DNA of 32,000 nt from Candidatus Thalassarchaeaceae archaeon (GTDB lineage: Archaea; Thermoplasmatota; Poseidoniia; Poseidoniales; Thalassarchaeaceae), in assembly GCA_045568075.1 (NCBI GenBank), contig JBJLBP010000001.1, positions 540,001-572,000 on the forward strand, written 5' to 3'. Below are positions 3,965 to 23,729 of this stretch, piece by piece. Every line of letters begins with the position of its first letter. Position 1 is the stretch's first letter. The notes beneath the pieces were generated by a model. The model saw only the letters and a list, made by a program, of their open reading frames with translations, did not search any database and was not told where the DNA came from. A program made the translations under genes and the position numbers.

Positions 3965-3982
3965 TCAGGTATGCTCCAAGGA

Positions 3983-4357
3983 TTAGGCAGACGCAGCAAC
4001 GGCGACGATGATTATGAACAGGTATAATCCGACGAATGCGATAGTCAGTCCGATAGAAATCCATCCAATAATCTTAGCAGCATTTGCCAATCCTTGATCT
4101 GGATGTCCGGGATTCTGCTTCGTTATTTCCAACGCTGAATTCGCCATGATTACTCCGGGGATCGCGGTGCAACAGGAGAATCCCATGAGGCCAACAATCG
4201 ACAGAACAAGAGCGATAGTCGCCTGTGTTTGAGGATACTGACCGACGTTCATCGGGTTGCTCATTCCTTGAACATAGAGAACTTCGGTTTGACTCTCTGG
4301 CTGTGCTTCACCAGAAGAGATTACATTCGTTGCCGGAGGAGCGTCTTCTTCAGCCAT
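3983..4357 (-). CDS. Small 2-TM membrane protein, paralog 2 (DUF4190-like)
   Basis: About two-thirds identical by eye to the 4419..4790 product (NVIS.GEAQP...YVQGM.NPMN.GQYPQTQA...PGVIMAN.AL..TKQ.PGHPDQGLA.AA.I.GWI.IGL). Confidence 0.7.
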   Translation of the reverse strand: MAEEDAPPATNVISSGEAQPESQTEVLYVQGMSNPMNVGQYPQTQATIALVLSIVGLMGFSCCTAIPGVIMANSALEITKQNPGHPDQGLANAAKIIGWISIGLTIAFVGLYLFIIIVAVAASA

Positions 4358-4418
4358 GACTATTCGTGGGATAGTCTTGGTTTAAGAGAATCTCCGTCGT
4401 TCCGGAACGCTCCGTCGC

Positions 4419-4790
4419 TCAGGCTTCTGCCGCGATGACTACGACGAACATCAACAAGTAGAACCCGATGATTACAATCCAGAGTCCGATAGTTATCCAT
4501 CCAACAATCTGAGCTGCCTTTGCCAATCCTTGATCTGGATGGCCGGGATACTGCTTGGTGGTTCCCAGTGCAGTATTTGCCATGATAACTCCGGGAACTG
4601 CGGTACAAAGGCCGCACATCATGAGGCCAACAACCGATAGAACAAGAGCGACAACCGCCTGTGTTTGAGGGTACTGACCGGCGTTCATCGGGTTGTTCAT
4701 TCCTTGAACATAAACAACATCGCCTTGACTCGCTGGCTGTGCTTCACCAGAGATTACATTCGTTTCAGGGGGCACACTCGCTTCGACCAT
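4419..4790 (-). CDS. Small 2-TM membrane protein, paralog 3 (DUF4190-like)
   Basis: Paralog of 3983..4357. TATA-like box lies 23-34 nt upstream of its ATG. Confidence 0.7.
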   Translation of the reverse strand: MVEASVPPETNVISGEAQPASQGDVVYVQGMNNPMNAGQYPQTQAVVALVLSVVGLMMCGLCTAVPGVIMANTALGTTKQYPGHPDQGLAKAAQIVGWITIGLWIVIIGFYLLMFVVVIAAEA

Positions 4791-11000: not shown

Positions 11001-11337
11001 CACCACCACCGCCACAAAGGAAGATATGGTCGAATCCTGCCTCGTCGAGAATTTCCTTAGTGTGAGTGAACATCTCGACCGCTCCGCCCTGATATGACGT
11101 AATCGCAATGGCATGAGCATCCTCTTGAATCGCCGCTCGAGCCACCTCGTCGGCGCCTCGGTCGTGACCGAGGTGAATGACTTCACAACCCATCGATTGG
11201 AAGATTCGACGGAAGATTCCGATTGCCGCATCGTGACCGTCGAAGATCGCCGCTGCGGTAACCACACGCAGCGGCGTAGTGGACTTGGCTCCCGCCTTCT
11301 CCGAAGGCGAATCTCCGGCCTGAACCTCGCTCGCCAT
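8032..11337 (-). CDS. icmF: Fused B12-dependent acyl-CoA mutase with internal MeaB-like G-protein (IcmF-type isobutyryl-CoA mutase fused)
   Basis: Domain order: N-terminal B12-binding domain (FDGHDAAIG, DxHxxG); G-protein P-loop GLTGTGGAGKSSL plus NKFD; C-terminal mutase barrel (FPFTAGVFPFKR...RMFAGEG..ERTNKRFHFL...RLSTAFDSPSLYGRDP). ATG 11337 is preferred over TTG 11361. Confidence 0.85.
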   Translation of the reverse strand: MASEVQAGDSPSEKAGAKSTTPLRVVTAAAIFDGHDAAIGIFRRIFQSMGCEVIHLGHDRGADEVARAAIQEDAHAIAITSYQGGAVEMFTHTKEILDEAGFDHIFLCGGGGGTILPWEIKKLRDEGIARIYSPDDGREMGLTGMVGDAIEEASGIDLLDSARFKSLSGPISANQHGEVAKLLTLAENAEDDKFRAALKRVRTIKEGEGCPVVGLTGTGGAGKSSLTDELMLRIQRDNPGAKVALLATDPTRKRTGGALLGDRIRMNSLADENLFMRSFASRASGREIANCIDRAIEACQAVGFDLVIVETSGIGQGNDAITEVADLSIYVTTREYGAPSQLEKLAALDFADLVVLNKFDRPGAEDALTEIRKQFKRNREMWDAKNEDLPVIPTIASQFADAGVDQLWQKLATLLNDNHDQSFQATEARLGVDGLPHRSAPIPPERQGYLAEVAASVRDYHSRTQEASRNVRLVQQLEAAANQMRKSNRLTSAADLTAEAEEIRKRVPESAWEILSEFDERAQAYRSGQASYTVRGKEIPVETTTETLSGLDMPRVALPDTQDWGEKMEWIRSENVPGAFPFTAGVFPFKREDETPIRMFAGEGSAERTNKRFHFLSEGQPFNRLSTAFDSPSLYGRDPQTRLDIFGKVCESGVSISTVDEMEMLFEGFDLCAPNTSTSKTINGNYWWHLAAFFNVAIRQQNRLFESENGRPPNEAEKAEIKAKALSTVRGTVQADQLKESMGQNTLVFNLDTALRMMGDVAEFYVQNNVRNHYFVSISGYHIAEAGANPITQAALTLSNGLTYVELFRARGLDPDKFLRNFSWFFSNGMDPEYAVIGRVARRIWSIAMREIYGVGHRGQQLKYHIQSSGRSLHAQEFTFNDYRTTLQALYALADNANSLHTNSRDEAFGTPTEETVRDSMAIQMILSKEYGLLANENPMQGSHLSTWLTDRVEEEILRVFEEMHRRGGVLGSLEVNYQRNRIQDESMVYEHRKHSGELPIVGVNTFINPDAASLSADEADAFDVDVTRSDEGEKRMVIERNAAFKAEHAAKAEEGIARLKQVARDGGNLFEVMMDIVEYCSVGQVTQALFETGGKFRRNM

Positions 11338-11444
11338 ACAACTGCGACCCAAGAGTCGCAAATGAAGGCGACGACGCTATTCAATCTCTGATTATACCTC
11401 AATGACGGGTGAGTATTGAAGATAAGAGGCACACTCGGTAATCC

Positions 11445-12581: not shown

Positions 12582-14381
12582 TCAAGCATCGGCATACATG
12601 TCTTCGATTTCGGACGCCCAGTTCTCGCGGATTTGCTTCCTGCGAATCTTCAGCGTCGGCGTCAATTCGCCATGGTCGACGCTGAGGTCACGGGGGAGCA
12701 CTGTGAACTTCTTGACCTGCTCGGGGTTGCTGAACTTCTGGTTCAACTGCGCCACTGCAGCAACGAGCTCGTTATGCGCGGCACTTCCAACAGAGGTGTA
12801 CTCGGAAAGGTCGTGGCCTAACTCGGCCAACTTGGCCAACTGCTCATTCGGGTCTTTGGGGACCTCGGTAGCCCCGTCGAGGCCATGGACGTCACGCAGA
12901 ATCGCTCCGACATCAAGGGTGAGCAGAGCGCTGCAGTACTTGCGGTTGTCACCGATCAGCATGCACTGCGAGACCATTGGGATACTCTTCATCGTCTCCT
13001 CGATTACCAAGGGCGCGATGTTCTTGCCGGCCGAGGAGACGTAGATCTCCTTGAGGCGGCCGGTGACATAGACGTAGCCGTCCGAATCAATCCTACCGAG
13101 GTCGCCGGACTTGAGCCAGCCGTCCTCAGTCATCGTTTCGGCGGTGGCCTCCGGGTCGCGGTAGTAGCCAGCCATGATGTGGCGCCCGTTGAACTGGATC
13201 TCACCATCCCCCTTCTCGTTAGGCTTCTCGATTCTGAGACCGCTTCCCTCGAAGGGCTTGCCTACACTACCAATCCTGTTGTTTTTGTCATAGTTTAGAG
13301 TCGCACCAGCTGTGGTCTCAGTCATACCGTAGCCCTCGAAGAGGGGCACGCCGAGCTTGTGGAACAGGTGCAGAATATCTTGGTTTATGGGAGCGGCACC
13401 TGTGATGGCGTACTTGACATTGGACATTCCAATCTTCGCCTTCGCCTTATTCTTGATGATACCACCAATGCCTGGGAGACTTAGCAAAAATGAGGGTGGG
13501 AGGCCGGCTACAAGGTTGCTGTACACCTTCTCGTAGATTCTAGGAACTCCAATGAACAGGTGAGGCTGAACCTCCTTGCAGTAGTCAATCGAGTGTAGAG
13601 GACTGTCGACTACGCGCATGTGGATTGCATCTCTAATCCACAGATGGTTATCAGCGACTTGGCCGAACACGTGCGCGCAGGGCAACCATGAGACGTACCC
13701 GTCGCCCTGGTCGTAAGAGGTAATCTTGTGTACGCACTCCAACTCGTAGTCGAAGTTGTCGTGGGTCAAGACCACGCCCTTCGGGTTACCGGTGGTGCCT
13801 GAGGTGTAGATTAGCGCGGCGGTGTCGGACGGCTTGATGCTCGCGATGCTCTCCGTCACAGCCGACTCGGGGATATCTGCACCCCTGGACATGAAGTCGG
13901 TCCAGGTCATGGCGCTCGGGTGATCGATAGCATCCATCCCGGCCATTGAGACTACCGCCTCGACCTTGTCGAGCGATCCCATCGTGGCTTGCAGCCTGTG
14001 AGAGCACATCTTGCTTGGGTCGCCACCGTCCATCGGATTGGTCCCGACGAACACTACCTTGGAGTCTGAGTTGCCTACGACCCACTCTACCTCTTCGGGT
14101 GAGCAGGTGTGGTAGACGCCGACGGCGGCACCGTTGCACATGTTGGCAGCCGCGTATGCAGCGTACCACTCCATGCGGTTGTATGAGTAGATACTCAGGT
14201 TGTCTCCGGCTTCGAATCCCATGGCCATCAGGGACTTGGCGACCCTCATGGTAGTATCACAGAATTCGGCCCAGGTCATGTTGACCCAGTTTCCATTCGC
14301 GTCCTTCCAGGATATCGCGTTCTCGTTGGCGTATTTCTCGGCGTTTGAAATCAGGTACTCGGGCGTGGTCATCGCTGACAT
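12582..14381 (-). CDS. Long-chain acyl-CoA synthetase (AMP-forming, ANL superfamily)
   Basis: AMP-binding motif LIYTSGTTGNPKGVVLTHDN, plus EGYGMTET and GWLKSGDLG motifs. Confidence 0.85.
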   Translation of the reverse strand: MSAMTTPEYLISNAEKYANENAISWKDANGNWVNMTWAEFCDTTMRVAKSLMAMGFEAGDNLSIYSYNRMEWYAAYAAANMCNGAAVGVYHTCSPEEVEWVVGNSDSKVVFVGTNPMDGGDPSKMCSHRLQATMGSLDKVEAVVSMAGMDAIDHPSAMTWTDFMSRGADIPESAVTESIASIKPSDTAALIYTSGTTGNPKGVVLTHDNFDYELECVHKITSYDQGDGYVSWLPCAHVFGQVADNHLWIRDAIHMRVVDSPLHSIDYCKEVQPHLFIGVPRIYEKVYSNLVAGLPPSFLLSLPGIGGIIKNKAKAKIGMSNVKYAITGAAPINQDILHLFHKLGVPLFEGYGMTETTAGATLNYDKNNRIGSVGKPFEGSGLRIEKPNEKGDGEIQFNGRHIMAGYYRDPEATAETMTEDGWLKSGDLGRIDSDGYVYVTGRLKEIYVSSAGKNIAPLVIEETMKSIPMVSQCMLIGDNRKYCSALLTLDVGAILRDVHGLDGATEVPKDPNEQLAKLAELGHDLSEYTSVGSAAHNELVAAVAQLNQKFSNPEQVKKFTVLPRDLSVDHGELTPTLKIRRKQIRENWASEIEDMYADA

Positions 14382-15794: not shown

Positions 15795-17252
15795 ATGGAG
15801 TGGCCACCCGGGCCGTATGAGTACGCGATGTTCGCGTTACTCGTGATGACAATCCCGATTCAGAGATTTCTAACTCGCGACGAGGTACACATGCGTGTCC
15901 CGCTACGTGGTTTACTTGATGAAATCCGAGACAAGGGATACTGGTGGCACATCGGATTGTATGGTGCCATGTTTCTCTACAAGGCATTAATAGATCATCA
16001 CAATGAACCTATGAAGGCACGAGTGGGGGGTTTTACTCATTGGATTCACGACATCGAAGGTGACTGGACTCTTTGGGTACAGGAGACCTTCTACAACGAC
16101 TTACTGACCGACCTTTTGAGCGCCCATTATCTGTTCATGTATCTCTTCATGATCTGGTTCTCTCCGATGTATTACATTCTATCTAGAGACGAGGTAATGG
16201 CGGACAAGGCGGCTCTGAATTACTTCGTGATTTATCTTCTAGCAGTACCTCTCTATTTGTTCTTCAATGTCGAAGTAACGAGTAGTTTCATCCCAGGAGT
16301 TGATGCGCTACTCTATCATGATGATTTCACTTTGAACTTCTTTACCACACATGACCCTATGGATAATGCTGTACCAAGTCTTCACATTGGTCTGCCAATT
16401 TCTTTGTTGATTCTGAATCGATTGCATTGTCGCAGTCAAGGCATAGATATCAGAGAATGGCGCCACCGAGAGTTTGACCTCTTCGTGATGGTTAATGTTG
16501 TAATTTACACATTTTCAATCCAGTATCTAGGAATCCATTGGATAGTTGATATTCTTCCAGGAATAGCTCTTGCAATTGTCTGTGCATCGTTCTGTCACGC
16601 AGTCCAGCCTGTGGTGCGATCAACATCTCTGCGAGATTGGCGAAAGTTACTACCAGATCGGAGCCAATCGATTTTCGCAGCTGTCTGTGTATTGTTGTTC
16701 AGCGGTGTGCTAGTAATCGGAGCAATCGACGGCCCTGGTGTCGATGAAGATGTTCCAAACTATCGCTTTGGGGTAGGGGATGTGAATGTAGAGACTGTCG
16801 AGGTTCATTCACTCTGGGATCCTGTGACGGTTGAGGTGTCTAATGTTGGCGACTCTACCGTTGAGGTTCTACTAATCAAACGGAAGTTTGTTGAGCCTCA
16901 TGCACAACAAGGTACTTTCGATTGGGATGCAATACTCGAGGATGGTACTCCAGATGTTGTTGTGCTTTTTCCCACTGGATATCCGGACCGTCGTAATTCA
17001 ACTGAATTTGAGGTCATGCCCGAAAGCCTCTTCGATGTACATCTTATTCTGATGCGAGTTCACGCCCAACAGGACCAACATAACACAAACACAGATCCTA
17101 GTGCTATTGGAGAGTTACGAATAACACCCCATTATGTTGATGATGAGTTGATGTGGAGCGCATTTTTGGCCAGTTGGCCGGCCTTCATTATCTTCGGTAT
17201 ATCTCTTGAAGGCCTCTTGTACCGGTCTAAGGATGCGACTGCAACTCTGTGA
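15795..17252 (+). CDS. Polytopic membrane protein: PAP2_3 (IPC-synthase/sphingomyelin-synthase-like phosphotransferase) domain fused to a beta-rich extracytoplasmic domain and a C-terminal TM anchor
   Basis: PAP2 C2/C3-like motifs AVPSLHIGLP and GIHWIVDILPG (HxxxD). After TM IFAAVCVLLFSGVLVIGAI comes a soluble segment of about 150 aa, then TM WPAFIIFGISLEGLLY. Confidence 0.6.
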   Translation: MEWPPGPYEYAMFALLVMTIPIQRFLTRDEVHMRVPLRGLLDEIRDKGYWWHIGLYGAMFLYKALIDHHNEPMKARVGGFTHWIHDIEGDWTLWVQETFYNDLLTDLLSAHYLFMYLFMIWFSPMYYILSRDEVMADKAALNYFVIYLLAVPLYLFFNVEVTSSFIPGVDALLYHDDFTLNFFTTHDPMDNAVPSLHIGLPISLLILNRLHCRSQGIDIREWRHREFDLFVMVNVVIYTFSIQYLGIHWIVDILPGIALAIVCASFCHAVQPVVRSTSLRDWRKLLPDRSQSIFAAVCVLLFSGVLVIGAIDGPGVDEDVPNYRFGVGDVNVETVEVHSLWDPVTVEVSNVGDSTVEVLLIKRKFVEPHAQQGTFDWDAILEDGTPDVVVLFPTGYPDRRNSTEFEVMPESLFDVHLILMRVHAQQDQHNTNTDPSAIGELRITPHYVDDELMWSAFLASWPAFIIFGISLEGLLYRSKDATATL

Positions 17253-17294: not shown

Positions 17295-17702
17295 TCACAG
17301 GAGATTGTGGGCGAGGATACCCCCGATGTAGAGCCCAGAGACCAAACCGAAACCAATCCACATTCCGACCCGGAAGGGCGGGTAATTTTGTTCCCAAATT
17401 GTCCGACTCTGCGCCAACCAGATGAGAATGACAGGCACGAACCAGACAAAGAATGCAATCTGCGGCAAGAAAGCCACGAGCATCCCGACCCAGATGCCGG
17501 CGATCATCTCAGCCTTACGACCGGAGCCGGCATCTGGGAAGAAAGCGAATTGCACTCCTGCCATCAGCGTCAGCAAGAAGGGCGCAAGCAACGAACCTTC
17601 GACGAGGTCAGGGTGCTCAACCAGATACGGCAGGACCGCGGCTGCGATTCCGAGGGCCAGCGGGCCAATCATCAGTGACATGGGCATGGACTCCCACTTC
17701 AT
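17295..17702 (-). CDS. Small 4-TM membrane protein, unknown function
   Basis: 135-aa hydrophobic ORF, divergent from the dioxygenase operon across an 82-nt gap. Confidence 0.55.
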   Translation of the reverse strand: MKWESMPMSLMIGPLALGIAAAVLPYLVEHPDLVEGSLLAPFLLTLMAGVQFAFFPDAGSGRKAEMIAGIWVGMLVAFLPQIAFFVWFVPVILIWLAQSRTIWEQNYPPFRVGMWIGFGLVSGLYIGGILAHNLL

Positions 17703-17755
17703 GGCACTGCGGCAAAACTCCTACCAATGAAGGCTACTAAACCGACCACAAGGTT

Positions 17756-17767
17756 TTCTTTAGATTT
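17756..17767 (+). promoter_or_regulatory. TATA-like box (TTCTTTAGATTT) for the dioxygenase operon
   Basis: Centred about 24 nt upstream of ATG 17785. No SD is present, suggesting a leaderless first gene. Confidence 0.3.
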
Positions 17768-17784
17768 CAAGACCTCATCATTTC

Positions 17785-18690
17785 ATGGCGAAGGGTCAGA
17801 TTGTCGCAGGATGCCTCGCACCGCACCCTCCTCACCTTGTTTACGCGGATAACCCGCCCCAAAACGAGGCGTACTCGGAAGGCGGTTGGGAAACTCTCCG
17901 ATGGGGCTACCAACGCCTCGCACGCAAACTGAAAAACATCGAGTACGATGCTATTGTCATCTTCACTCCACATTGGCAAACCTACATCGGAACTCACTTT
18001 CTTGGCTTACCTCAATTCAAATCGAAGTCTGTCGATCCGGTATTCCCCAACCTATTCCGCTACAATTACGACCTCACAGTCGACGTCGACCTCGCCCAAG
18101 CGATGCACGACGAGGCTCATGCGCAGGGTATTATCACCAAGATGATGACCAACCCGGATTTCCGAGTCGACTATGGCACGATTACCAGTTGTCACCTACT
18201 TAATCCAGAATGGGACAAGCCAATCGTGACGATTTCCAGTAATCGAAACACGCATTATTACTCGCCAGAAGTCATGGTTGAGCAGGCGACCGCGCTTGGC
18301 CGCGCCTGTGCAAAAGCCATCGAAGAGAGCGGCAAGCGCGTCGTGCTCGTGGCGAGCCATTCACTTTCTCACAGACACTTCGTGGAGGAAGCACCCCTGC
18401 CCGAGGACATGAGCCGTGAACATATCTACAACCATAGTCAGTACGTTTGGGACATGAAAATTATCGATATGATGCGCGAGGGTAAGAGTCGCGAAGTCAT
18501 CGATATCATGCCAGAATTCACCGAGCAAACAATGGCAGAAACCGAGGGCGGTGGCCTCATTTGGATGCTCGGAGCTATGGGTTATCCTAAATTTCCTGCT
18601 GAAATTTATGGCTATCAATCGGTCATCGGAACAGGCAATGTAGTCGCTTGCTGGGACCCGAATGACGAGACGCGGGAGCACGTCCTTTGA
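17785..18690 (+). CDS. LigB-family (class III) extradiol ring-cleavage dioxygenase, catalytic-type subunit (AmnB-like)
   Basis: LAPHPPHLV N-terminus, FTPHW, FRVDYGTIT and ASHSLSHRHF motifs. Histidines are present at the positions expected for the LigB-fold metal ligands and general base. Confidence 0.8.
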   Translation: MAKGQIVAGCLAPHPPHLVYADNPPQNEAYSEGGWETLRWGYQRLARKLKNIEYDAIVIFTPHWQTYIGTHFLGLPQFKSKSVDPVFPNLFRYNYDLTVDVDLAQAMHDEAHAQGIITKMMTNPDFRVDYGTITSCHLLNPEWDKPIVTISSNRNTHYYSPEVMVEQATALGRACAKAIEESGKRVVLVASHSLSHRHFVEEAPLPEDMSREHIYNHSQYVWDMKIIDMMREGKSREVIDIMPEFTEQTMAETEGGGLIWMLGAMGYPKFPAEIYGYQSVIGTGNVVACWDPNDETREHVL

Positions 18691-18699
18691 GGTGATCTG

Positions 18700-19635
18700 A
18701 TGAGTGAGACAAACGAACCTGAGATTATCTTCGGCGTTTACTGCCCTCCACACCCTCAACCACTTCTTTCTCCGGATGCAAACGCCGGGTATGCCAAATT
18801 GAGAGCTGCTTTCGATGAATGCCGCCGCCGTATCGAAGAAAGCGATGCAGACATCATTCTGGTTTATTCTACAACTTGGGCGAGCATCATTGGGCATCAA
18901 ATTCAGGCACTAGAGAATGCGGTTTGGACGCATGTTGACGATGATTTCCATTATCTAGGCAGTATGCCATACAATTTTGCGATTGATACTGAGTTCGCCC
19001 ACGCGATGAAGGAGAATTCCGAGAAGCGTGGGCTGGAAGCACGAACCGTCGAATACGAAGGATTCCCCATCGATACCGGTTCAGTGGTCGCTTTGCAGTT
19101 GTTGAATCCGGATAATCGGATCCCTTCTTGCATTCTCTCAAGCAATATGTACTCAAATCGTGCTGAGACTATTGTTCTGGGTAAGGCGGTACGTGACACT
19201 CTAGCGCAACAGGGCAAGAAAGCAGTAGTCGTGGTAGTTTCGAGTCTGTCGAATCGGATGTTTACAGAGCATATCGATCCGGCCGAGGATCGAATTCATT
19301 CACAGAAGGATGATGATTGGAATCGCAAGATCCTCGAATTCTTCGGAGATGGTCGACTTGAAGATTTGAGCCAGTTGAGTCGAGATATTCATGGCCAGAT
19401 TCGAGTTCAGAAAGTCGTTGCCTACAAACCGGCTTGGTGGCTAGCAGCAACGATGGGTCAGCACAATAATTACGACGGAGAAGTGCTGGCCTACGAAGCA
19501 CTTCACGGAAGCGGAGGAGCGGTCATCACACTGACGCCGGCGAGCGGTTCGGTAGGTGACAAGGAATTCGATGAGGACGACGTGGAGTTTTACCGCGGCG
19601 ACCGGAACGTGCTCGATAGAGGGATGTTGGAATGA
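18700..19635 (+). CDS. LigB-family paralog lacking the catalytic histidines (non-catalytic alpha-type subunit, AmnA-like)
   Basis: Aligns with the upstream protein: CPPHPQPLL versus APHPPHLV; YSTTW versus FTPHW; VSSLSNRMF versus ASHSLSHRHF. GAGGTGAT SD lies 3 nt upstream of ATG 18700. Confidence 0.75.
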   Translation: MSETNEPEIIFGVYCPPHPQPLLSPDANAGYAKLRAAFDECRRRIEESDADIILVYSTTWASIIGHQIQALENAVWTHVDDDFHYLGSMPYNFAIDTEFAHAMKENSEKRGLEARTVEYEGFPIDTGSVVALQLLNPDNRIPSCILSSNMYSNRAETIVLGKAVRDTLAQQGKKAVVVVVSSLSNRMFTEHIDPAEDRIHSQKDDDWNRKILEFFGDGRLEDLSQLSRDIHGQIRVQKVVAYKPAWWLAATMGQHNNYDGEVLAYEALHGSGGAVITLTPASGSVGDKEFDEDDVEFYRGDRNVLDRGMLE

Positions 19636-20318
19636 GTAAGGGCGATGCCGATTCTACAGTCGATTCGGATGTTGATTCCGAGGATGATGGCTCGGCCTTC
19701 ATGCACCGTCTTGAGATGATTCGCGACCTCATCGAGGCACCTGATGAAGCAATCGAAGCCCTCTACGATCAATATGGGAAATCGATGGTTTACACCGCAG
19801 GTGGAGCGATGGGTGCCGCCGCCGGAGTTGCTGTCGGTGGTCCCGTAGGCGGCCTAGTCGGCGGCGTTGTCGGCAAGAAGACGGCTGGAAAATTCACCAA
19901 TCAGGACGGTCCTATTTTTTCCGAGAATGCTCCAAGTGCCGTGGGAGCATATCCACACGCTCACCGAGTTGGAAATCTGATTTTTGTTAGTGGAATCGGA
20001 CCGCGTCAAGCGGTGACTGATGAAATTCCTGGCGGGCCGATTCGTGACGCGGATGGAAATCCACTGGATTATGACATCCGCGCTCAAACCCGAGCCGTCA
20101 TCGAGAATATCAAGACAATTCTCGAAGATGCCGGAACATCTCTCGACAAGGTTGTCGATTGCCTCTCATTCCTTGTCGATATGGATCGTGATTTCGCGGG
20201 ATATAACGAGGTCTACGCTGAGTATTTTTCAGACATCCAATGCGCCCGCACGACGGTAGCTGTGCGAGCCATGCCAACACCAATCGCTGTTGAGCTCAAG
20301 GTCATCGCCAAAATATGA
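19632..20318 (+). CDS. RidA/YjgF-family (Endoribonuclease L-PSP fold) enamine/imine deaminase with an N-terminal acidic plus glycine-zipper extension
   Basis: C-terminal 135 aa: APSAVGAYPHAHRVGNLIFVSG...IRAQTRAVIENIKTILEDAGTSLDKVV...ARTTVAV...VELKVIA. ATGA start/stop overlap with the upstream gene at 19632-19635. Confidence 0.8.
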   Translation: MSKGDADSTVDSDVDSEDDGSAFMHRLEMIRDLIEAPDEAIEALYDQYGKSMVYTAGGAMGAAAGVAVGGPVGGLVGGVVGKKTAGKFTNQDGPIFSENAPSAVGAYPHAHRVGNLIFVSGIGPRQAVTDEIPGGPIRDADGNPLDYDIRAQTRAVIENIKTILEDAGTSLDKVVDCLSFLVDMDRDFAGYNEVYAEYFSDIQCARTTVAVRAMPTPIAVELKVIAKI

Positions 20319-20336: not shown

Positions 20337-21356
20337 TCAGCCTAACGATTCCACGCGCTCAGCAGTACAACCTGGCGGTGCAGTGATGGGATTGCAAGCC
20401 ACTGTACCACCCGGCACTACGACCCAATAATCGATGCCATCGACAGGTGCCGGATAATCCGTCGAAATCGAATGGGCGCCAACAGCAAACGCAGCATCCC
20501 TCCGCGCCGTCTGATTATCATCAGCCTCTCCATCCTCGGCATTGTCCGCTCGAGACCTTACGATGTAACCCTCCTCAACCAGCCGCGTAATCTCGTCACC
20601 CATGCCGATAGGATCGGTCTCAGAGTAAATCGCTGCCGTCTCACTAGCCTCATCATTCATTGTGAACATCAGTGAGCCATTCAGTCCTGGAAATGCCTCC
20701 GTATAGGCATCTCTCACATCATCCTCTGCGAGCAGGATGAACATCGCTTTGCCACGAGATTCTTCCAAAAGAGGCCAGCCGATTGTGGTCACAGCCTCGC
20801 GTAACGTCGCAGCCTCACCACGAACATCGTCCGGTGCAATCGTCTTTTCTCGCGGCCACCATTCGGCTATTTCCTCCTCGATTTTTTCAAGCATTTCTTG
20901 TAACTCAAGGACTGCGTCACTATCGGTACTAGATCTCACCCATTCCTTTGGCTCCACCCAAATCATCAGAGGCACGTGTTCGGCATTTGCCTCCGACCAA
21001 GTGAGCAGGGTGGTCAGACATTCCTCAAAAGTGGCGCAATTACTACGGAAATCGTACTGATTATGGTAGACGTACAACTGCCCTCGCGGATCCCACCAGA
21101 CATCCAACTCAAACTGCCTTACTCCGAAACTCTCGGCCTGAACATCCAATGGCTCATGAGTGTAATCATAGGCTCGAATGGTCGGCCCGAACGGTTTGAT
21201 GTGGTAGGAATTGTGCGTGCCGAGGACTTGGACATGATTGATTCTGAGTGGTTCCGGCTCGCTTGAATTGTCACCACCACCGGGTAACATCTCGAAGCAG
21301 CCGGCGAGTGGTGTTGCCAGCATCAAGAAGCACAGGGCTAGTGCGGTCGACCTCAT
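20337..21356 (-). CDS. Secreted lipoprotein with PLC-like phosphodiesterase (PI-PLC X-domain-like TIM barrel) domain
   Basis: Signal peptide with lipobox LAGC (MRSTALALCFLMLATPLAGC). VLGTHNSYH catalytic-type motif. Confidence 0.6.
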   Translation of the reverse strand: MRSTALALCFLMLATPLAGCFEMLPGGGDNSSEPEPLRINHVQVLGTHNSYHIKPFGPTIRAYDYTHEPLDVQAESFGVRQFELDVWWDPRGQLYVYHNQYDFRSNCATFEECLTTLLTWSEANAEHVPLMIWVEPKEWVRSSTDSDAVLELQEMLEKIEEEIAEWWPREKTIAPDDVRGEAATLREAVTTIGWPLLEESRGKAMFILLAEDDVRDAYTEAFPGLNGSLMFTMNDEASETAAIYSETDPIGMGDEITRLVEEGYIVRSRADNAEDGEADDNQTARRDAAFAVGAHSISTDYPAPVDGIDYWVVVPGGTVACNPITAPPGCTAERVESLG

Positions 21357-22037: not shown

Positions 22038-23729
22038 ATGAATCGAAGGCGCATGACAATTAGAGGACCGACGGAACTTGCGGGTATAGTCCTCAAGTCA
22101 GATGCCGGAATGGATGGGACTCTAGAACGGAAACTCAATCTCAGCGCAGTTGTGATTATCTCACTATCTGCAATGCTTGGTTCTGGTCTCTTTGTTCTAC
22201 CTGCTCTAGCTATGCTTCAGATGGGTGGTGGAGATCAGCCGGTAGGAGGCGTATGGTTAGCTTACCTAGTGGCTGCCGTAATCGTATTGCCTGCTGCTAT
22301 TTCGAAATCTGAGTTGGCAACTGCAATGCCTACTTCTGGAGGATCCTATGTTTACGTTCAGAGAACATTTGGTCCGATGTTCGGAACTATATCTGGACTC
22401 GGTTTATGGGCGAACTTCATGCTGAAGTCCGCATTTGCGTTGATTGGCTTCAAAGCATATTTGTGGGTGATTGAAGATATTATTGGAATTAACATAGATA
22501 TCGAGATTGCTGCACTTGTACTTTTGGCACTAATTGTAGGAATCAATATCCTCGGTGTTAAGAGAATCAAGAAAGTACAGACTCCAATTGTGCTAATTTC
22601 TGTAACATATTTGCTAATGCTTTGTGCATATGCCCTTGCTACCATGGAAATGAATTGGGATAATGTGTTTTCTTGGGAAGCCTTTGGAAGTGATTGGGAA
22701 GCAGTAGCATCAACCGCCGCCTTTGTTTTCGTTTCTTATGCAGGAGTTACTAAGATAGCCGCAATTGGCGGTGAAATCAAAGATCCAAGTAGAAATATTC
22801 CTAACGGAATTTTACTATCTCTGTTGATCAGCGCCACTCTTTACGTTGTTGTGACTTTAGTTATGGCAGCTTCCATGGATCCTGCGTTATTCATGGATGC
22901 AAATCATGCTGGTCATGCAAGAGAAGACCCTGTTTTCCTATTCGCTGACGGAGTCGGCGGTAAGGAAATTGGTATCATTGCAGCCTTACTCTCTGTTTTG
23001 ACAATGACTTCGATGTCATTGGCAGGTATCATGGCGGCCTCAAGGTTCCCTTATGCAATGGCCAAGGATAAGCTACTTCCTTCCTTCCTTGAGAAAGTAC
23101 ATGAGGAGTATCAAACTCCTCATTGGGCAATAATTGGCACTGGTTTGTCTATGGCTGCAGCCATCACCTTTCTTCCAGTTCATGATGTAGCAGAATTGGC
23201 TTCAGGCTTCAAAATCATGATTTTCATTATCATCAATGCATGTGTGATAGTTCTACGCAGTGCATCACGGTCCCATTCGTGGTATGCTCCTGAATGGAAG
23301 TCGCCGGTATATCCATTAATCCAGATATTTGGAATAATTGGCGGTTTTGTTCTCCTATTCTTAATGGGGTCAAAGGCGCTAATTGGTGGAACTGCAGCAG
23401 TTGTACTCGGATTCATCATCTACAAGGGATATGGTGAGAAACATGCTGATCTAGAAATAACTCCATGGGAGACCTTTGGGTTGCAGTATAGTGACCCTAA
23501 GGAAGTTGAACAACGTCGTCGTCTTACTGCTTTCTATGCCGCAGATATCGATGGTAATGGTGAGTTAAACGCGGATCAATATCTTTCAGCTATGGATGCA
23601 CTAGGGTATTCAGAGGATAAAGAGAGTGAATTGCTAGTATACTTTGACGAAGCCGATGTTGATAGCAATGGTATCATCGATATCGAGGAATTCTTAGCCA
23701 GTGTTGATAGGCACGAGTCCTCAGATTAG
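22038..23729 (+). CDS. APC-superfamily amino-acid permease fused to a C-terminal EF-hand pair
   Basis: SAMLGSGLFVLPA and about 12 TM segments. The tail carries DIDGNGELNADQ (23544-23579) and DVDSNGIIDIEE (23655-23690) calcium-loop motifs. The start could lie further downstream (MDGTLERK). Confidence 0.8.
   Translation: MNRRRMTIRGPTELAGIVLKSDAGMDGTLERKLNLSAVVIISLSAMLGSGLFVLPALAMLQMGGGDQPVGGVWLAYLVAAVIVLPAAISKSELATAMPTSGGSYVYVQRTFGPMFGTISGLGLWANFMLKSAFALIGFKAYLWVIEDIIGINIDIEIAALVLLALIVGINILGVKRIKKVQTPIVLISVTYLLMLCAYALATMEMNWDNVFSWEAFGSDWEAVASTAAFVFVSYAGVTKIAAIGGEIKDPSRNIPNGILLSLLISATLYVVVTLVMAASMDPALFMDANHAGHAREDPVFLFADGVGGKEIGIIAALLSVLTMTSMSLAGIMAASRFPYAMAKDKLLPSFLEKVHEEYQTPHWAIIGTGLSMAAAITFLPVHDVAELASGFKIMIFIIINACVIVLRSASRSHSWYAPEWKSPVYPLIQIFGIIGGFVLLFLMGSKALIGGTAAVVLGFIIYKGYGEKHADLEITPWETFGLQYSDPKEVEQRRRLTAFYAADIDGNGELNADQYLSAMDALGYSEDKESELLVYFDEADVDSNGIIDIEEFLASVDRHESSD

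What the first reader, a model, noticed from the sequence alone, without database searches (positions are those of the whole stretch)
17785..20318. Tightly coupled operon: catalytic LigB-type dioxygenase + histidine-less LigB paralog + RidA-family deaminase (AmnB/AmnA/AmnD-like trio) in an archaeon, without the rest of the pathway
Seen in sequence: three co-directional genes with a GAGGTGAT SD 3 nt before ATG 18700 and an ATGA stop/start overlap at 19632-19635, so they are almost certainly one translationally coupled unit. Proteins 1 and 2 are paralogs. Protein 1 keeps histidines in APHPPHLV, FTPHW and ASHSLSHRHF. Protein 2 has CPPHPQPLL, YSTTW and VSSLSNRMF at the aligned positions, so it has lost the residues that serve as Fe(II) ligand and general base in LigB-fold enzymes. 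Protein 3 ends in a complete RidA/YjgF domain, including the Arg of the ARTTV block. Established knowledge: the characterised LigB-family enzyme built from a catalytic beta subunit and a homologous inactive alpha subunit is 2-aminophenol 1,6-dioxygenase (amnB-amnA gene order). The 2-aminomuconate deaminase of that pathway (AmnD) belongs to the YjgF/RidA/RutC family. Inference: this could be a minimal module that cleaves an o-aminophenol-type or related aromatic ring and releases ammonia. However, no aminomuconic-semialdehyde dehydrogenase, decarboxylase, hydratase or aldolase lies nearby. The neighbours are instead membrane and lipid-headgroup enzymes plus a divergent 4-TM protein (17295-17702). 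Substrate and role in a marine archaeon are therefore open, and this may be a new pathway variant.
Basis: partly seen in the sequence, partly recalled or inferred. Interest (0 to 1): 0.72.

Follow-up and report, generated by a model that had tools for sequence, protein, structure and literature searches.

The report
Archaeal aminophenol ring-cleavage and deaminase module
A very abundant marine archaeon carries a two-subunit ring-opening dioxygenase coupled to an ammonia-releasing enzyme, and related genomes suggest the module belongs to an undescribed route for breaking down tryptophan-derived kynurenine.

Summary
Three co-directional, translationally coupled genes lie at 17785-20318 in a Marine Group II archaeon (Poseidoniales, Thalassarchaeaceae).

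- **P1** is a clear AmnB/CnbCb orthologue (E 6e-107, all iron ligands kept).
- **P2** is an AmnA-type subunit that has lost its catalytic residues (E 2e-41).
- **P3** is a RidA deaminase closest to the solved 2-aminomuconate deaminase and shares its long loop.

The AmnB/AmnA/AmnD reading is therefore supported. "Without the rest of the pathway" holds only for this locus.

- Across 185 related loci, P2 and P3 are often one fused protein. The N-terminal extension of P3 is the former fusion linker.
- In about 48 archaeal-type loci and in marine bacteria, the trio sits beside an AmnC-type semialdehyde dehydrogenase, a luciferase-like monooxygenase, an Asparaginase_II-family hydrolase and an SDR.
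- The bacterial loci add tryptophan 2,3-dioxygenase and arylformamidase.
- One MAG with the window's gene arrangement carries that block on a second contig.
- No classical lower meta-cleavage genes, kynureninase or KMO were seen.

I propose, by inference only, this route: kynurenine, Baeyer-Villiger oxygenation, hydrolysis to aspartate plus 2-aminophenol, ring cleavage, oxidation, deamination. No paper describing this was found. It is a new variant of a known kind.

The parts
17785..18690 (+). P1: catalytic beta subunit of a 2-aminophenol-type extradiol (LigB-fold) dioxygenase, AmnB/CnbCb-like, 301 aa
   Evidence: PDB phmmer hits: 3vsg_B 6.1e-107, 8ihg_A 2.1e-104, 7txy_B 1.4e-100. H14, H63, E252 and H196 are invariant in the alignment with AmnB sequences. 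[quoted passage not shown]
18689..18696 (+). Shine-Dalgarno-like GAGGTGAT, 3 nt upstream of the P2 start and overlapping the P1 stop codon
   Evidence: Sequence read. Complementarity to the 3' end of 16S rRNA is established knowledge and was not tested here.
18700..19635 (+). P2: non-catalytic alpha subunit, AmnA/CnbCa-like, 311 aa
   Evidence: PDB phmmer hits: 8ihg_B 2.2e-41, 3vsg_A 5.4e-40. T, Q/V and N replace the H63, E252 and H196 equivalents. P2 directly follows P1 in 149 of 155 loci with room.
19555..19614 (+). Conserved acidic C-terminal tail of P2 (GDKEFDEDDVEFYRGDRNVL). Absent from canonical AmnA and present in all archaeal and marine bacterial members of this clade.
   Evidence: Its function is unknown. 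Because it forms the start of the linker in the fusion proteins, a docking role is inferred.
19632..19635 (+). ATGA overlap of the P2 stop and the P3 start (translational coupling). It marks the fission point of an ancestral AmnA::RidA fusion.
19632..20318 (+). P3: AmnD-like RidA-family enamine/imine deaminase with a 94-aa N-terminal extension, 228 aa
19797..19874 (+). Glycine-rich hydrophobic segment of P3 (residues 56-81, AGGAMGAAAGVAVGGPVGGLVGGVVG). It could be a glycine-zipper membrane hairpin or a flexible linker.
   Evidence: Weak PF20721 C19orf12 match, E 3.8e-4, below cutoff. Best 19-residue Kyte-Doolittle window scores 1.67. The segment is present in split and in some fused forms and absent in others.
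19914..20315 (+). RidA domain of P3 (residues 95-228), with Arg206 in ARTTV and an AmnE-like long Lp2 loop
   Evidence: Best PDB hit is 6izh, 2-aminomuconate deaminase, 5.7e-24, aligned with only 3 gap positions. Generic RidA 2csl needs a 13-residue gap. AmnE residues were taken from PMC6742747.
17295..17702 (-). Divergently transcribed small multi-pass membrane protein (135 aa) of unknown function
   Evidence: No Pfam or NCBIfam match. It is the most frequent neighbour family, found in 110 of 172 clustered loci and always just upstream of P1 on the opposite strand in Poseidoniales. Hydrophobic peaks are shown.
17703..17784 (.). 82-bp divergent intergenic region that presumably holds the promoters of the trio and of the 4-TM gene. 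P1 has no SD, which suggests a short leader or none.
   Evidence: Sequence read. The promoter assignment is inference only.
22038..23729 (+). APC-family amino-acid permease with a C-terminal EF-hand pair. It is a candidate importer of the pathway substrate.
   Evidence: Pfam results and NCBIfam results. It lies immediately downstream of P3 in most Poseidoniales loci. In the window it is separated from P3 by the inserted PI-PLC and FKBP genes.

Best explanation
**What the three genes encode**
- An Fe(II) extradiol dioxygenase built from a catalytic AmnB-like subunit (P1) and a homologous inactive AmnA-like subunit (P2).
- A physically associated AmnD-like RidA deaminase (P3).
- P3 was once the C-terminal domain of P2 and was split off by gene fission. 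The ATGA overlap keeps the two in stoichiometric co-translation.

**Proposed chemistry**
1. P1/P2 open an o-aminophenol ring next to the hydroxyl, giving 2-aminomuconic 6-semialdehyde.
2. An AmnC-type dehydrogenase oxidises this to 2-aminomuconate. The dehydrogenase is adjacent in many relatives. In at least one genome with the window's gene arrangement it lies at a second locus.
3. P3 hydrolyses the enamine/imine to 2-oxohex-3-enedioate plus NH4+.

**Proposed pathway context**
The module is the back end of a dispersed pathway whose other conserved members are:
- a luciferase-like flavin monooxygenase;
- an Asparaginase_II-family hydrolase;
- an SDR;
- a formyl-group enzyme, which is arylformamidase in bacteria and a Formyl_trans_N protein in archaea;
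- tryptophan 2,3-dioxygenase, in bacteria only.

The most economical reading is a kynurenine route:
1. The monooxygenase performs a Baeyer-Villiger insertion on the aryl ketone of kynurenine.
2. The hydrolase releases L-aspartate plus 2-aminophenol.
3. The trio and the dehydrogenase then dispose of the 2-aminophenol and recover its nitrogen.

**Status of each layer**
- Shown: enzyme family identities, residue conservation, gene fusion, gene linkage.
- Inferred: complex formation, substrates, and every reaction.

**Rough confidence by layer**
- AmnB/AmnA/AmnD-type module: 0.9.
- Link to tryptophan/kynurenine catabolism: 0.6.
- Baeyer-Villiger plus hydrolase route to 2-aminophenol: 0.35.
For: **Identity of the three proteins**
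- The best solved relatives of P1 are the AmnB/CnbCb beta subunits, and those of P2 are the AmnA/CnbCa alpha subunits.
- The iron-ligand and base positions are kept in P1 and lost in P2.
- P3's best solved relative is 2-aminomuconate deaminase, with a shared loop. It is 40% identical to the AmnD-position gene and 26% to the AmnJ-type RidA.

**Linkage**
- P2 follows P1 in 149 of 155 loci, and the RidA follows in 134 of 143.
- AmnA::RidA fusions occur in bacteria (L087, L088), in deep Poseidoniales (L084-86) and in others. The linker is homologous to the P3 N-terminus (Pfam of the fusion).

**Partner genes**
- The adjacent ALDH's top 7 PDB hits are all 2-aminomuconate-6-semialdehyde dehydrogenases.
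- LLM-Asn2-ALDH lies next to amnBA in 48 archaeal-type loci and in most bacterial ones.
- L149 is one co-directional operon: TDO-SDR-LLM-Asn2-ALDH-AmnB-AmnA-RidA-Fmt.
- TDO is present in 10 of 38 non-archaeal-type loci.
- The cyclase scores as arylformamidase TIGR03035.
- Cyclase and Fmt-like never co-occur: 14 loci versus 35.
- A flavin reductase sits next to the block in L177 and L178.
- Asn2 keeps the catalytic-type motifs of the class-3 asparaginase.

**Second locus**
- MAG TMED280 has the window-type trio on NHLZ01000021.1 and Fmt-SDR-LLM-Asn2-ALDH on NHLZ01000025.1.

**Chemical precedent (own knowledge)**
- The hap pathway of Pseudomonas fluorescens ACB runs aryl ketone, BVMO, esterase, two-subunit Fe dioxygenase, semialdehyde dehydrogenase.
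- Type II BVMOs are luciferase-like.
Against: - No enzyme was assayed, and every substrate is inferred.
- The luciferase-like protein has no close characterised relative: phmmer against the PDB gave no hit at E <= 0.01, and the profile search gave only weak luciferase hits at E 2e-4. A hydroxylase role cannot be excluded.
- No TDO was seen in any of the 136 archaeal-type loci, so the archaea may not start from tryptophan itself.
- The second locus was shown for a relative whose P1 is 84% identical, in a binned MAG. It was not shown for the window's own species. The Asn2 hit lists never matched the long contigs that carry the window-type trio, but those lists were truncated.
- P3 scores almost as well against generic RidA (2csl, 8.9e-24) as against AmnE (5.7e-24). 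AmnE's hexamer residue Arg56 and cleft residue Glu88 are not conserved in P3, which has Asn and Asp there.
- Nothing downstream of 2-oxohex-3-enedioate was identified apart from a speculative role for the SDR.
Confidence: 0.6

Rival explanations
1. The LigB-type enzyme replaces 3-hydroxyanthranilate 3,4-dioxygenase in an otherwise classical kynurenine pathway. P1/P2 would cleave 3-hydroxyanthranilate (or 3-hydroxykynurenine). The luciferase-like enzyme would be a substitute kynurenine or anthranilate 3-hydroxylase. The dehydrogenase and RidA would then act as in the nba/kynurenine route.
For: - TDO, arylformamidase, an AMSDH-type ALDH and an aminomuconate-deaminase-like RidA are the first and last steps of the classical pathway.
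- AmnB-type cleavage has the same regiochemistry as HAO, next to the OH and distal to the NH2 (established knowledge).
Against: - No kynureninase, KMO, HAO or ACMSD-type gene turned up among the Pfam-annotated neighbours or the recurrent neighbour families. They were not searched for with dedicated queries.
- Without ACMSD the carboxylated product would not reach the AMSDH substrate.
- A Ser-Lys amidohydrolase cannot perform kynureninase's C-C cleavage. This reading leaves the Asparaginase_II protein, which is found in every bacterial genome locus L087-L092 and is the most frequent enzymatic partner, without a role.
- P1 is 50-55% identical to proven 2-aminophenol enzymes.
Confidence: 0.15
2. 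In genomes arranged like the window, the trio works alone as a nitrogen-scavenging or detoxification module. An imported o-aminophenol is cleaved, and the RidA domain hydrolyses the enamine of 2-aminomuconic semialdehyde directly. This releases NH4+ and pre-empts spontaneous cyclisation to picolinate, with no dehydrogenase needed. This is essentially the first reader's minimal-module idea.
For: - No ALDH lies within 32 kb here, nor within +/-10 kb in 64 archaeal-type loci.
- The trio is strongly conserved in those lineages, with P1 75-100% identical.
- A permease is nearby.
- 2-AMS cyclises to picolinate spontaneously (PMC3790839).
- A deaminase acting directly on an aminomuconic semialdehyde is known from Bordetella sp. 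10d (own knowledge).
Against: - A MAG with this arrangement has the AMSDH-type ALDH block on another contig.
- Intermediate arrangements (ALDH-PAP2-LonN-4TM-P1) show that the separation arose by insertion and rearrangement, not by loss.
- Unlinked LLM-Asn2-ALDH blocks are very abundant in Poseidoniales.
Confidence: 0.15
3. A remnant or horizontally acquired piece of the xenobiotic nitrobenzene / aminophenol (amn/cnb/nbz) degradation pathway, with no dedicated natural role.
For: - The closest characterised relatives all come from pollutant-degrading Pseudomonas, Comamonas and Burkholderia strains.
Against: - The trio is conserved across at least 74 species-level Poseidoniales genomes and in hundreds of metagenome contigs from open-ocean samples.
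- The marine clade is distinct: 66% identity within it against 50% to canonical AmnB.
- None of the amnJ, MarR, decarboxylase, hydratase, aldolase or acetaldehyde-dehydrogenase genes accompanies it.
Confidence: 0.03
4. P3 is a generic housekeeping RidA (2-aminoacrylate / iminopropionate deaminase) that merely happens to lie downstream of the dioxygenase.
For: - It scores almost as well against generic RidA (2csl, 8.9e-24) as against AmnE.
- NCBIfam's best match is the generic Rid family model TIGR00004, below its cutoff.
Against: - It is fused in frame to the AmnA-like subunit in many independent lineages of two domains.
- It follows P2 in 134 of 143 loci.
- It shares the AmnE-type long loop.
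Confidence: 0.03

Closest known systems
2-Aminophenol 1,6-dioxygenase AmnAB / 2-amino-5-chlorophenol 1,6-dioxygenase CnbCaCb (Pseudomonas sp. AP-3, Comamonas testosteroni CNB-1; PDB 8IHG, 3VSG-3VSJ)
   Same: - Two homologous LigB-fold subunits, catalytic beta and inactive alpha.
- Beta-then-alpha gene order.
- The 2-His-1-carboxylate ligands and the catalytic His are kept in beta and lost in alpha.
- P1 is 50-55% identical, and P2 matches at E 1e-40.
   Different: - The host is archaeal and marine.
- The alpha subunit carries a conserved acidic C-terminal tail and is often fused to a RidA domain.
- There is no amnJ, no MarR and no lower meta-cleavage genes.
- The gene partners are different: LLM, Asparaginase_II, SDR, TDO and formamidase.
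2-Aminomuconate deaminase AmnD/AmnE (RidA subfamily; PDB 6IZH, PMC6742747)
   Same: - RidA fold.
- Catalytic Arg (R117 in AmnE, R206 in P3) and Lys (K135, K223).
- An unusually long Lp2 loop.
- Genetic association with AmnBA and an AMSDH.
   Different: - P3 has a 94-aa N-terminal extension (acidic stretch, helix, glycine-rich hydrophobic segment) derived from a fusion linker.
- AmnE's hexamer residue R56 is Asn in P3, and cleft residue E88 is Asp.
- Identity is only about 40%.
ARO bacterial-microcompartment 2-aminophenol dioxygenase of Actinobacteria (Micromonospora rosaria, PDB 7TXY; PMC10470539)
   Same: - An AmnAB-type enzyme found outside pollutant degraders and coupled to a semialdehyde dehydrogenase.
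- The authors state that its natural upstream substrate is unknown.
   Different: - No microcompartment shell genes are present here.
- The lineage differs.
- Here the neighbours suggest what the upper pathway is.
hap pathway of Pseudomonas fluorescens ACB: 4-hydroxyacetophenone monooxygenase, aryl esterase, two-subunit Fe(II) hydroquinone dioxygenase HapCD, semialdehyde dehydrogenase (own knowledge, not checked here)
   Same: The proposed logic is the same: aryl ketone, Baeyer-Villiger ester, hydrolysis to a phenol, ring cleavage by a two-subunit Fe enzyme, aldehyde oxidation.
   Different: - The protein families are unrelated: a class B flavoprotein BVMO against a luciferase-like enzyme, and a different dioxygenase fold.
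- The resemblance is functional and hypothetical, not homology.
Classical bacterial kynurenine / nba pathway (TDO, KynB, KMO, KynU, HAO, ACMSD, AMSDH, NbaF deaminase)
   Same: [quoted passage not shown]
- It shares the last two: an AMSDH-type ALDH and a RidA-type aminomuconate deaminase.
   Different: The four middle enzymes were not seen. They appear to be replaced by the luciferase-like monooxygenase, the Asparaginase_II hydrolase and AmnBA.

Membership tests
2-aminophenol 1,6-dioxygenase (AmnAB/CnbC), LigB superfamily | Beta subunit with LigB fold and close sequence similarity to AmnB/CnbCb | tested here: met
   Pfam LigB 1.1e-29. PDB hits 3vsg_B 6.1e-107, 8ihg_A 2.1e-104 and 7txy_B 1.4e-100, full length.
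2-aminophenol 1,6-dioxygenase (AmnAB/CnbC), LigB superfamily | Fe(II) ligands (His13, His62, Glu251 in CnbCb numbering) and catalytic His195 in the beta subunit. The residue roles are recalled from Li et al. 2013 and were not re-read here. | tested here: met
   P1 H14, H63, E252 and H196 are invariant columns in alignments with CnbCb, P. veronii AmnB and AP-3 AmnB.
2-aminophenol 1,6-dioxygenase (AmnAB/CnbC), LigB superfamily | Homologous alpha subunit that has lost the metal ligands | tested here: met
   P2's best PDB hits are the AmnA/CnbCa alpha subunits (2.2e-41, 5.4e-40). T, Q/V and N occupy the H63, E252 and H196 positions. One His is retained in the first loop.
2-aminophenol 1,6-dioxygenase (AmnAB/CnbC), LigB superfamily | amnB-amnA adjacent, co-directional gene order | tested here: met
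   Seen in 149 of 155 related loci.
2-aminophenol 1,6-dioxygenase (AmnAB/CnbC), LigB superfamily | Alpha2-beta2 complex formation and ring cleavage of 2-aminophenol | not testable with these tools
   No multimer prediction or assay is available. These features are inferred from homology only.
2-aminomuconate deaminase (AmnD/AmnE type, RidA subfamily) | RidA fold with the catalytic arginine | tested here: met
   PF01042 2.4e-26. R206 in ARTTV aligns with AmnE R117.
2-aminomuconate deaminase (AmnD/AmnE type, RidA subfamily) | Extended Lp2 loop characteristic of AmnE | tested here: met
   P3 98-226 aligns to 6izh 13-138 with 3 gap positions. Generic RidA 2csl needs a 13-residue gap.
2-aminomuconate deaminase (AmnD/AmnE type, RidA subfamily) | Hexamer-forming Arg56 and cleft Glu88 of AmnE (PMC6742747) | tested here: not met
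   Asn and Asp occupy the aligned positions in P3. These residues define AmnE's quaternary structure rather than its activity, so this lowers the claim "is an AmnE orthologue" but not the claim "works like one".
2-aminomuconate deaminase (AmnD/AmnE type, RidA subfamily) | Genetic association with AmnBA and a 2-aminomuconate-semialdehyde dehydrogenase | tested here: inconclusive
   Association with AmnBA is met, including fusions. The dehydrogenase is absent from the window, adjacent in about 48 archaeal-type and 16 other loci, and at a second locus in MAG TMED280.
Classical amn/cnb meta-cleavage operon (amnRJBACDFEHG) | 4-oxalocrotonate decarboxylase, 2-oxopent-4-enoate hydratase, 4-hydroxy-2-oxovalerate aldolase and acetaldehyde dehydrogenase in the cluster | tested here: not met
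   tblastn with the pCNB1 and P. veronii enzymes found none in the window or in L001-L010 and L013-L092. No such family appears among the recurrent neighbours in 172 loci.
Classical amn/cnb meta-cleavage operon (amnRJBACDFEHG) | AmnJ-type RidA upstream of amnB, and a MarR regulator | tested here: not met
   The upstream gene is a 4-TM protein on the opposite strand. P3 is only 26-29% identical to AmnJ-type proteins.
Classical kynurenine pathway | TDO and kynurenine formamidase | tested here: inconclusive
   Absent from the window and from all 136 archaeal-type loci. TDO is present in 10 and the arylformamidase-like cyclase in 14 of 38 non-archaeal-type loci.
Classical kynurenine pathway | KMO, kynureninase, HAO, ACMSD | tested here: not met
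   None was found among the Pfam-annotated neighbours of L043, L057, L087, L108 and L149, or in the precomputed Pfam lists of L173-L185. No dedicated query sequences were used and whole genomes could not be searched.

The most novel reading that the evidence does not exclude
The trio is the terminal part of a previously undescribed, widespread marine pathway that catabolises kynurenine or N-formylkynurenine without kynureninase, KMO, HAO or ACMSD.

Proposed steps:
1. A two-component luciferase-like Baeyer-Villiger monooxygenase converts the aryl ketone into a beta-aspartyl 2-aminophenyl ester (or the rearranged anilide).
2. An Asparaginase_II-family hydrolase releases L-aspartate and 2-aminophenol.
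3. AmnBA, an AMSDH and the RidA domain convert 2-aminophenol to 2-oxohex-3-enedioate plus ammonium.

This would give 2-aminophenol dioxygenases a natural substrate source. In Marine Group II archaea, which show no TDO at these loci, it would point to scavenging of kynurenine residues from photo-oxidised protein through the adjacent amino-acid permease.
Probability: 0.35. Interest if true: 0.85.

Novelty: new variant of a known kind. Interest (0 to 1): 0.7.

Why it matters
**Ecological reach**
- Marine Group II archaea are among the most abundant heterotrophs in the surface ocean, and none has been cultured.
- This module is conserved in at least 74 of their species-level genomes.
- The three MGII genomics and transcription papers I checked do not mention it.
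- NCBI mislabels it as a tRNA-modification protein.

**An open biochemical question**
- 2-Aminophenol dioxygenases are known almost only from pollutant degraders.
- Their natural substrate source is an acknowledged open question (PMC10470539).
- The conserved partners found here turn that question into a concrete, testable hypothesis: a kynureninase-independent route from kynurenine to 2-aminophenol plus aspartate.

**If the hypothesis holds**
- It adds a new branch to tryptophan catabolism.
- It assigns a function to a divergent luciferase-like family and to a non-asparaginase member of the class-3 asparaginase family.
- It identifies a nitrogen- and carbon-recovery route for oxidised protein in sunlit seawater.

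**Independent of the pathway**
- The AmnA::RidA fusions are direct Rosetta-stone evidence that the deaminase works at the dioxygenase.
- That arrangement would limit loss of the unstable semialdehyde or enamine to picolinate.

Tried and rejected
**Searches that led nowhere**
1. I looked for the rest of the classical amn pathway near the trio, using tblastn with pCNB1 and P. veronii enzymes. Nothing was found except the ALDH.
2. I tried to show that the window's own species carries the LLM-Asn2-ALDH block.
   - I compared the longest-contig lengths of Asn2 homologues with those of P1 homologues. There were no matches, but the lists are cut at 120 of about 1600.
   - I compared NCBI accession ranges. 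This succeeded only for MAG TMED280, whose P1 is 84% identical to the window's.
3. I looked for a close characterised relative of the luciferase-like protein.
   - Single-sequence phmmer against the PDB gave nothing.
   - The profile search gave only weak luciferase alpha-chain hits.
   - NCBIfam gave one faint hit.
   - The Baeyer-Villiger assignment therefore stays an inference.
4. Ten literature searches found no description. They combined aminophenol, kynurenine, Baeyer-Villiger, luciferase-like, MGII and Poseidoniales. Two caveats apply: the library is incomplete, and enzyme names containing commas could not be searched exactly.

**Readings considered and rejected**
5. They are absent from the ALDH-linked loci and from bacteria, and intermediate arrangements show they are insertions.
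6. The glycine-rich segment as a classical transmembrane helix.
   - It also occurs inside AmnA::RidA fusion linkers, where one membrane pass would put two cytosolic-type domains on opposite sides.
   - It is absent from many orthologues.
   - A re-entrant hairpin or a flexible linker remains possible.

**Not attempted**
7. Structure prediction. Close solved homologues exist for P1, P2 and the RidA domain, and the tool does not accept the partner proteins or complexes.

Full report
**1. The observation**

- P1: 17785-18690, 301 aa.
- P2: 18700-19635, 311 aa.
- P3: 19632-20318, 228 aa.

All three are on the + strand.

The junctions are also as described. GAGGTGAT lies at 18689-18696, 3 nt before the P2 ATG, and overlaps the P1 stop codon. 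The P3 ATG overlaps the P2 TGA as ATGA at 19632-19635. Every quoted peptide motif is present.

Pfam assigns LigB to P1 (1.1e-29) and P2 (5.2e-16), and Ribonuc_L-PSP to P3 residues 98-227 (2.4e-26). P1 and P2 are paralogues at 24% identity, E 1e-25.

The window is archaeal. It encodes PCNA, Nop56/58, fibrillarin, the RFC small subunit and GatD. The identical P1 protein is deposited from Ca. Poseidoniales/Thalassarchaeaceae MAGs, that is, Marine Group II. It is listed in 386 blocks of the assembly collection.

Nothing else in the 32 kb resembles a meta-cleavage pathway enzyme.

**2. What the three proteins are**

*P1.* Searched against all solved structures, P1's best matches are the beta subunits of 2-amino-5-chlorophenol and 2-aminophenol 1,6-dioxygenase. 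These are 3vsg_B at 6.1e-107, 8ihg_A at 2.1e-104 and 7txy_B at 1.4e-100, each over the full length.

*P2.* Its best matches are the corresponding alpha subunits: 8ihg_B at 2.2e-41 and 3vsg_A at 5.4e-40.

*Catalytic residues.* In alignments with CnbCb and two Pseudomonas AmnB sequences, P1 keeps H14, H63, E252 and H196 as invariant columns. I recall these as the three Fe(II) ligands and the catalytic base of CnbCb (Li et al. 2013). I did not re-read that paper.

P2 has T, Q/V and N at the last three positions, as canonical AmnA does. It keeps one His in the first loop. Whether that His aligns with the ligand is ambiguous by one column.

*P3.* The RidA domain's best solved relative is the 2-aminomuconate deaminase AmnE (6izh, 5.7e-24). 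The two align with only three gap positions because both have an unusually long Lp2 loop. The next hit, a generic RidA (2csl, 8.9e-24), needs a 13-residue gap.

I compared P3 with the two RidA genes of bacterial amn clusters fetched from plasmids. It is 40% identical (5e-29) to the AmnD-position gene of the P. veronii cluster. It is 26-29% identical to the AmnJ-type genes upstream of amnB in the pCNB and P. veronii clusters.

The catalytic Arg (R206) is present. AmnE's hexamer residue R56 and cleft residue E88 are Asn and Asp in P3.

The AmnB/AmnA/AmnD-like reading is therefore well supported at the level of family identity.

JGI already labels P1 as a 2-aminophenol dioxygenase beta subunit. 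NCBI labels it, and the Pseudomonas amnB/amnA genes as well, [quoted passage not shown].

**3. Conservation and anatomy of the trio**

A scan of one genome per species found at least 552 species with a relative of P1. The best 80 were about 74 Poseidoniales species (99 to 65% identity), followed by six marine or sediment bacteria at about 66%. These were Myxococcota, Planctomycetota, Rhodobacterales, a deltaproteobacterium and Holophagae.

A metagenome scan and the contig look-ups brought the total to 185 loci.

Linkage across those loci:
- P2 directly follows P1 in 149 of 155 loci with room for it.
- The RidA follows P2 in 134 of 143.

The marine clade is distinct from the pollutant-degrader enzymes. 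The window's P1 is 66-67% identical to the marine bacterial proteins and 50% to CnbCb and AmnB.

The P2/P3 junction takes three forms:
- *Split, with a long P3 N-terminus.* The window and most of its relatives have overlapping stop and start codons. The P3 N-terminus runs 68-103 aa in cleanly called loci and consists of an acidic stretch, a helix with "APDE.IE.LYD.YGKS", and a glycine-rich hydrophobic segment.
- *Fused.* Many lineages have one ORF, AmnA::RidA, with or without the glycine-rich segment in the linker. These include the bacteria L087 and L088 and the most divergent Poseidoniales, L084-L086.
- *Split, with a short RidA.* Some lineages have a stand-alone RidA of 117-142 aa.

Pfam confirms both domains in the L087 fusion.

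The window's P3 N-terminus is recognisably homologous to the fusion linker (compare EALYDQYGKS...Gly-rich with DDLYDEYGS...Gly-rich). Because the outgroups are fused, the simplest history is fission of an ancestral fusion. That is an inference.

All P2 proteins of this clade carry a conserved acidic tail, GDKE[FY]DEDDVE.[FY].GDR.VL, which canonical AmnA lacks.

The fusions are Rosetta-stone evidence that the deaminase acts together with the dioxygenase.

**4. The neighbourhood, and the "missing" pathway**

Mapping homologues of the window's neighbours and of the bacterial amn enzymes onto all loci showed two main archaeal arrangements.

- *The window's arrangement:* UDG, tRNA-editing domain, PAP2-like, 4-TM (opposite strand) | P1-P2-P3 | PI-PLC, (FKBP), amino-acid permease, PanB.
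- *The other arrangement:* Formyl_trans_N protein, SDR, (TPR), luciferase-like monooxygenase (LLM), Asparaginase_II-family protein (Asn2), ALDH, 4-TM | P1-P2-P3 | permease, PanB.

Of 112 archaeal-type loci with enough upstream sequence, 48 have the ALDH block and 64 do not.

The ALDH's seven best solved relatives are all 2-aminomuconate-6-semialdehyde dehydrogenases, at 2e-137 to 1e-132. The next hit is at 3e-117. It is therefore AmnC/AMSDH-like.

Intermediate arrangements exist in L103, L109, L111 and L112: LLM-Asn2-ALDH-PAP2-LonN-like-4TM|P1. PAP2 and PI-PLC are thus insertions, not partners.

The 4-TM gene and the permease are the only constant archaeal neighbours. Among the recurrent neighbour families, the 4-TM gene is in 110 loci and the permease in 89.

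**5. Is the block elsewhere in genomes arranged like the window?**

Asn2 homologues were found independently of P1. They include an "unlinked" form: (flavin reductase)-Fmt-SDR-LLM-Asn2-ALDH-KASIII-like, with no amnBA within 7-9 kb (L173-175, L177-178, L182-185). One such Asn2 is listed in 448 blocks of the assembly collection.

Assembly GCA_002168355.1 (MAG TMED280) settles the point for one relative:
- Contig NHLZ01000021.1 carries the window-type arrangement (L181; P1 84% identical to the window's).
- Contig NHLZ01000025.1 carries Fmt-SDR-LLM-Asn2-ALDH (L185).

So at least one genome of this type has the dehydrogenase and its partners at a second locus. This carries the usual caveat of MAG binning.

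I could not show it for the window's own species.

**6. What pathway is this?**

The bacterial relatives are informative.

- L087 (Myxococcales) has TDO (divergent) | LLM-Asn2-ALDH-AmnB-AmnA::RidA-cyclase.
- L149 is one co-directional operon: TDO-SDR-LLM-Asn2-ALDH-AmnB-AmnA-RidA-Fmt-like.
- L108, L154 and L167 have SDR-SDR-LLM-Asn2-ALDH ... AmnB-AmnA::RidA-cyclase ... TDO.

TDO occurs in 10 of 38 non-archaeal-type loci and the cyclase in 14. The cyclase scores as arylformamidase (kynurenine formamidase, TIGR03035) at 200.5 bits against a cutoff of 223.

The cyclase and the Fmt-like protein never co-occur: 14 loci versus 35. That is the pattern expected if either one can supply an N-formylkynurenine-deformylating step. 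This is an inference.

The first two and the last two steps of the kynurenine pathway are therefore present. No kynureninase, KMO, HAO or ACMSD was seen among the annotated neighbours.

What stands in their place is LLM, Asn2 and AmnBA.
- All nine LLM proteins examined match PF00296. None has a close characterised relative.
- A flavin reductase sits next to LLM in L177 and L178.
- Asn2 is 71-77% identical between archaea and bacteria. It keeps motifs that align with what I recall as the Ser-Lys pairs and two of the three zinc ligands of the R. etli class-3 asparaginase.

**7. Proposed mechanism**

The steps below are inferred unless marked otherwise.

1. Kynurenine is an aryl ketone.
2. A luciferase-like (type II) Baeyer-Villiger monooxygenase would insert oxygen to give the 2-aminophenyl ester of aspartate's beta-carboxyl. 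This could rearrange to N4-(2-hydroxyphenyl)asparagine.
3. An asparaginase-like hydrolase would release L-aspartate and 2-aminophenol.
4. AmnBA (P1/P2) would cleave the ring to 2-aminomuconic semialdehyde.
5. The AMSDH would oxidise that to 2-aminomuconate.
6. The RidA domain (P3) would hydrolyse it to 2-oxohex-3-enedioate plus ammonium.
7. The enoyl-reductase-like SDR might reduce that product toward 2-oxoadipate.

Every conserved gene gets a role in this scheme. The logic copies the hap pathway for 4-hydroxyacetophenone (own knowledge).

Holding the deaminase on the dioxygenase, by fusion or by coupled translation, would limit escape of unstable intermediates. The semialdehyde cyclises spontaneously to picolinate (PMC3790839).

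In the archaea no TDO is linked, and an amino-acid permease is. The archaea may therefore import kynurenine or N-formylkynurenine. Photo-oxidised protein is one speculative source.

**8. Rivals**

- *A LigB-type substitute for 3-hydroxyanthranilate dioxygenase.* This leaves Asn2 without a role and lacks ACMSD.
- *A stand-alone nitrogen-scavenging module in window-type genomes.* The TMED280 second locus and the intermediate arrangements weaken this.
- *A xenobiotic-pathway remnant, or a merely adjacent housekeeping RidA.* Both are contradicted by the breadth of conservation and by the fusions.

**9. Novelty**

The protein families are known, and automated annotation (JGI) already names P1 correctly.

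The following appear in none of the papers I could search or read:
- the archaeal and marine distribution;
- the AmnA::RidA fusions and their fission;
- the acidic tail;
- the absence of the classical lower pathway;
- the constant association with an LLM, an Asparaginase_II protein, TDO and a formamidase.

This rests, and on three MGII genomics and transcription papers.

A 2023 study of an actinobacterial AmnAB states that the natural upper pathway feeding 2-aminophenol is unknown.

I rate the finding a new variant of a known kind. There is a substantial chance, about 0.35, that it marks a genuinely new kynurenine catabolic route.

Noticed in passing
window 17785-19635; L012 9001-10783: NCBI's pipeline names AmnB- and AmnA-like proteins [quoted passage not shown]. 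This applies to the archaeal MAGs and even to a Pseudomonas veronii amn cluster. It looks like a systematic mis-annotation, and JGI names the same protein correctly.
   Followed up: partly
window 22038-23729 (+): An APC-family amino-acid permease carries a C-terminal pair of EF-hand calcium-binding motifs (residues ~497-554), an unusual fusion for a prokaryotic transporter. It is conserved next to the trio across Poseidoniales.
   Followed up: partly
window 17295-17702 (-): A small multi-pass membrane protein with no family match is the most constant neighbour of P1 in Poseidoniales. It is found in 110 of 172 clustered loci, always divergent and immediately upstream, and is missing from the loci that lack the other archaeal markers. 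Its role is unknown.
   Followed up: partly
L043 3054-3830; L149 8619-9335; L087 12292-12921: A Formyl_trans_N-domain protein (about 240-280 aa) and a PF04199 arylformamidase-like cyclase are mutually exclusive across the related loci: 35 loci versus 14, never both. This suggests non-orthologous replacement of a deformylation step.
   Followed up: partly
window 3605-4790 (-): Three tandem paralogous small membrane proteins (119, 124 and 123 aa) each carry a DUF4190 domain.
   Followed up: no
window 8032-11361 (-): A 1109-aa fusion combines a B12-binding domain, a MeaB-like GTPase and a methylmalonyl-CoA-mutase domain, which is the architecture of IcmF-type fused isobutyryl-CoA mutases. An AMP-binding acyl-CoA ligase lies nearby at 12582-14381.
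   Followed up: no
window 15795-17252 (+) and 20337-21356 (-): A PAP2-superfamily-like membrane protein (weak, below the Pfam cutoff) and a Ca2+-dependent PI-PLC-like protein flank the trio. Comparison with related loci shows they are lineage-specific insertions into an older ALDH-4TM-amnBA-RidA-permease arrangement.
   Followed up: yes
L173 392-1816; L177 5475-6137: Near the unlinked LLM-Asn2-ALDH block, one locus has a Beta_elim_lyase (the tryptophanase / tyrosine phenol-lyase family) and others have a flavin reductase. A KASIII-like gene always follows the ALDH there.
   Followed up: no
L002 9494-9919 versus window 17295-17702: In a MAG whose P1 is identical to the window's, the divergent 4-TM gene is only 41% identical, while all other neighbours are 98-100% identical. 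This is a local hypervariable or replaced gene.
   Followed up: no
L087-L092 versus L042-L086: The whole cluster is unusually similar between Poseidoniales and marine Myxococcota or Planctomycetota: Asn2 71-77%, P1 65-67%, ALDH about 60% and LLM about 57%. This points to inter-domain transfer of the complete gene set.
   Followed up: partly
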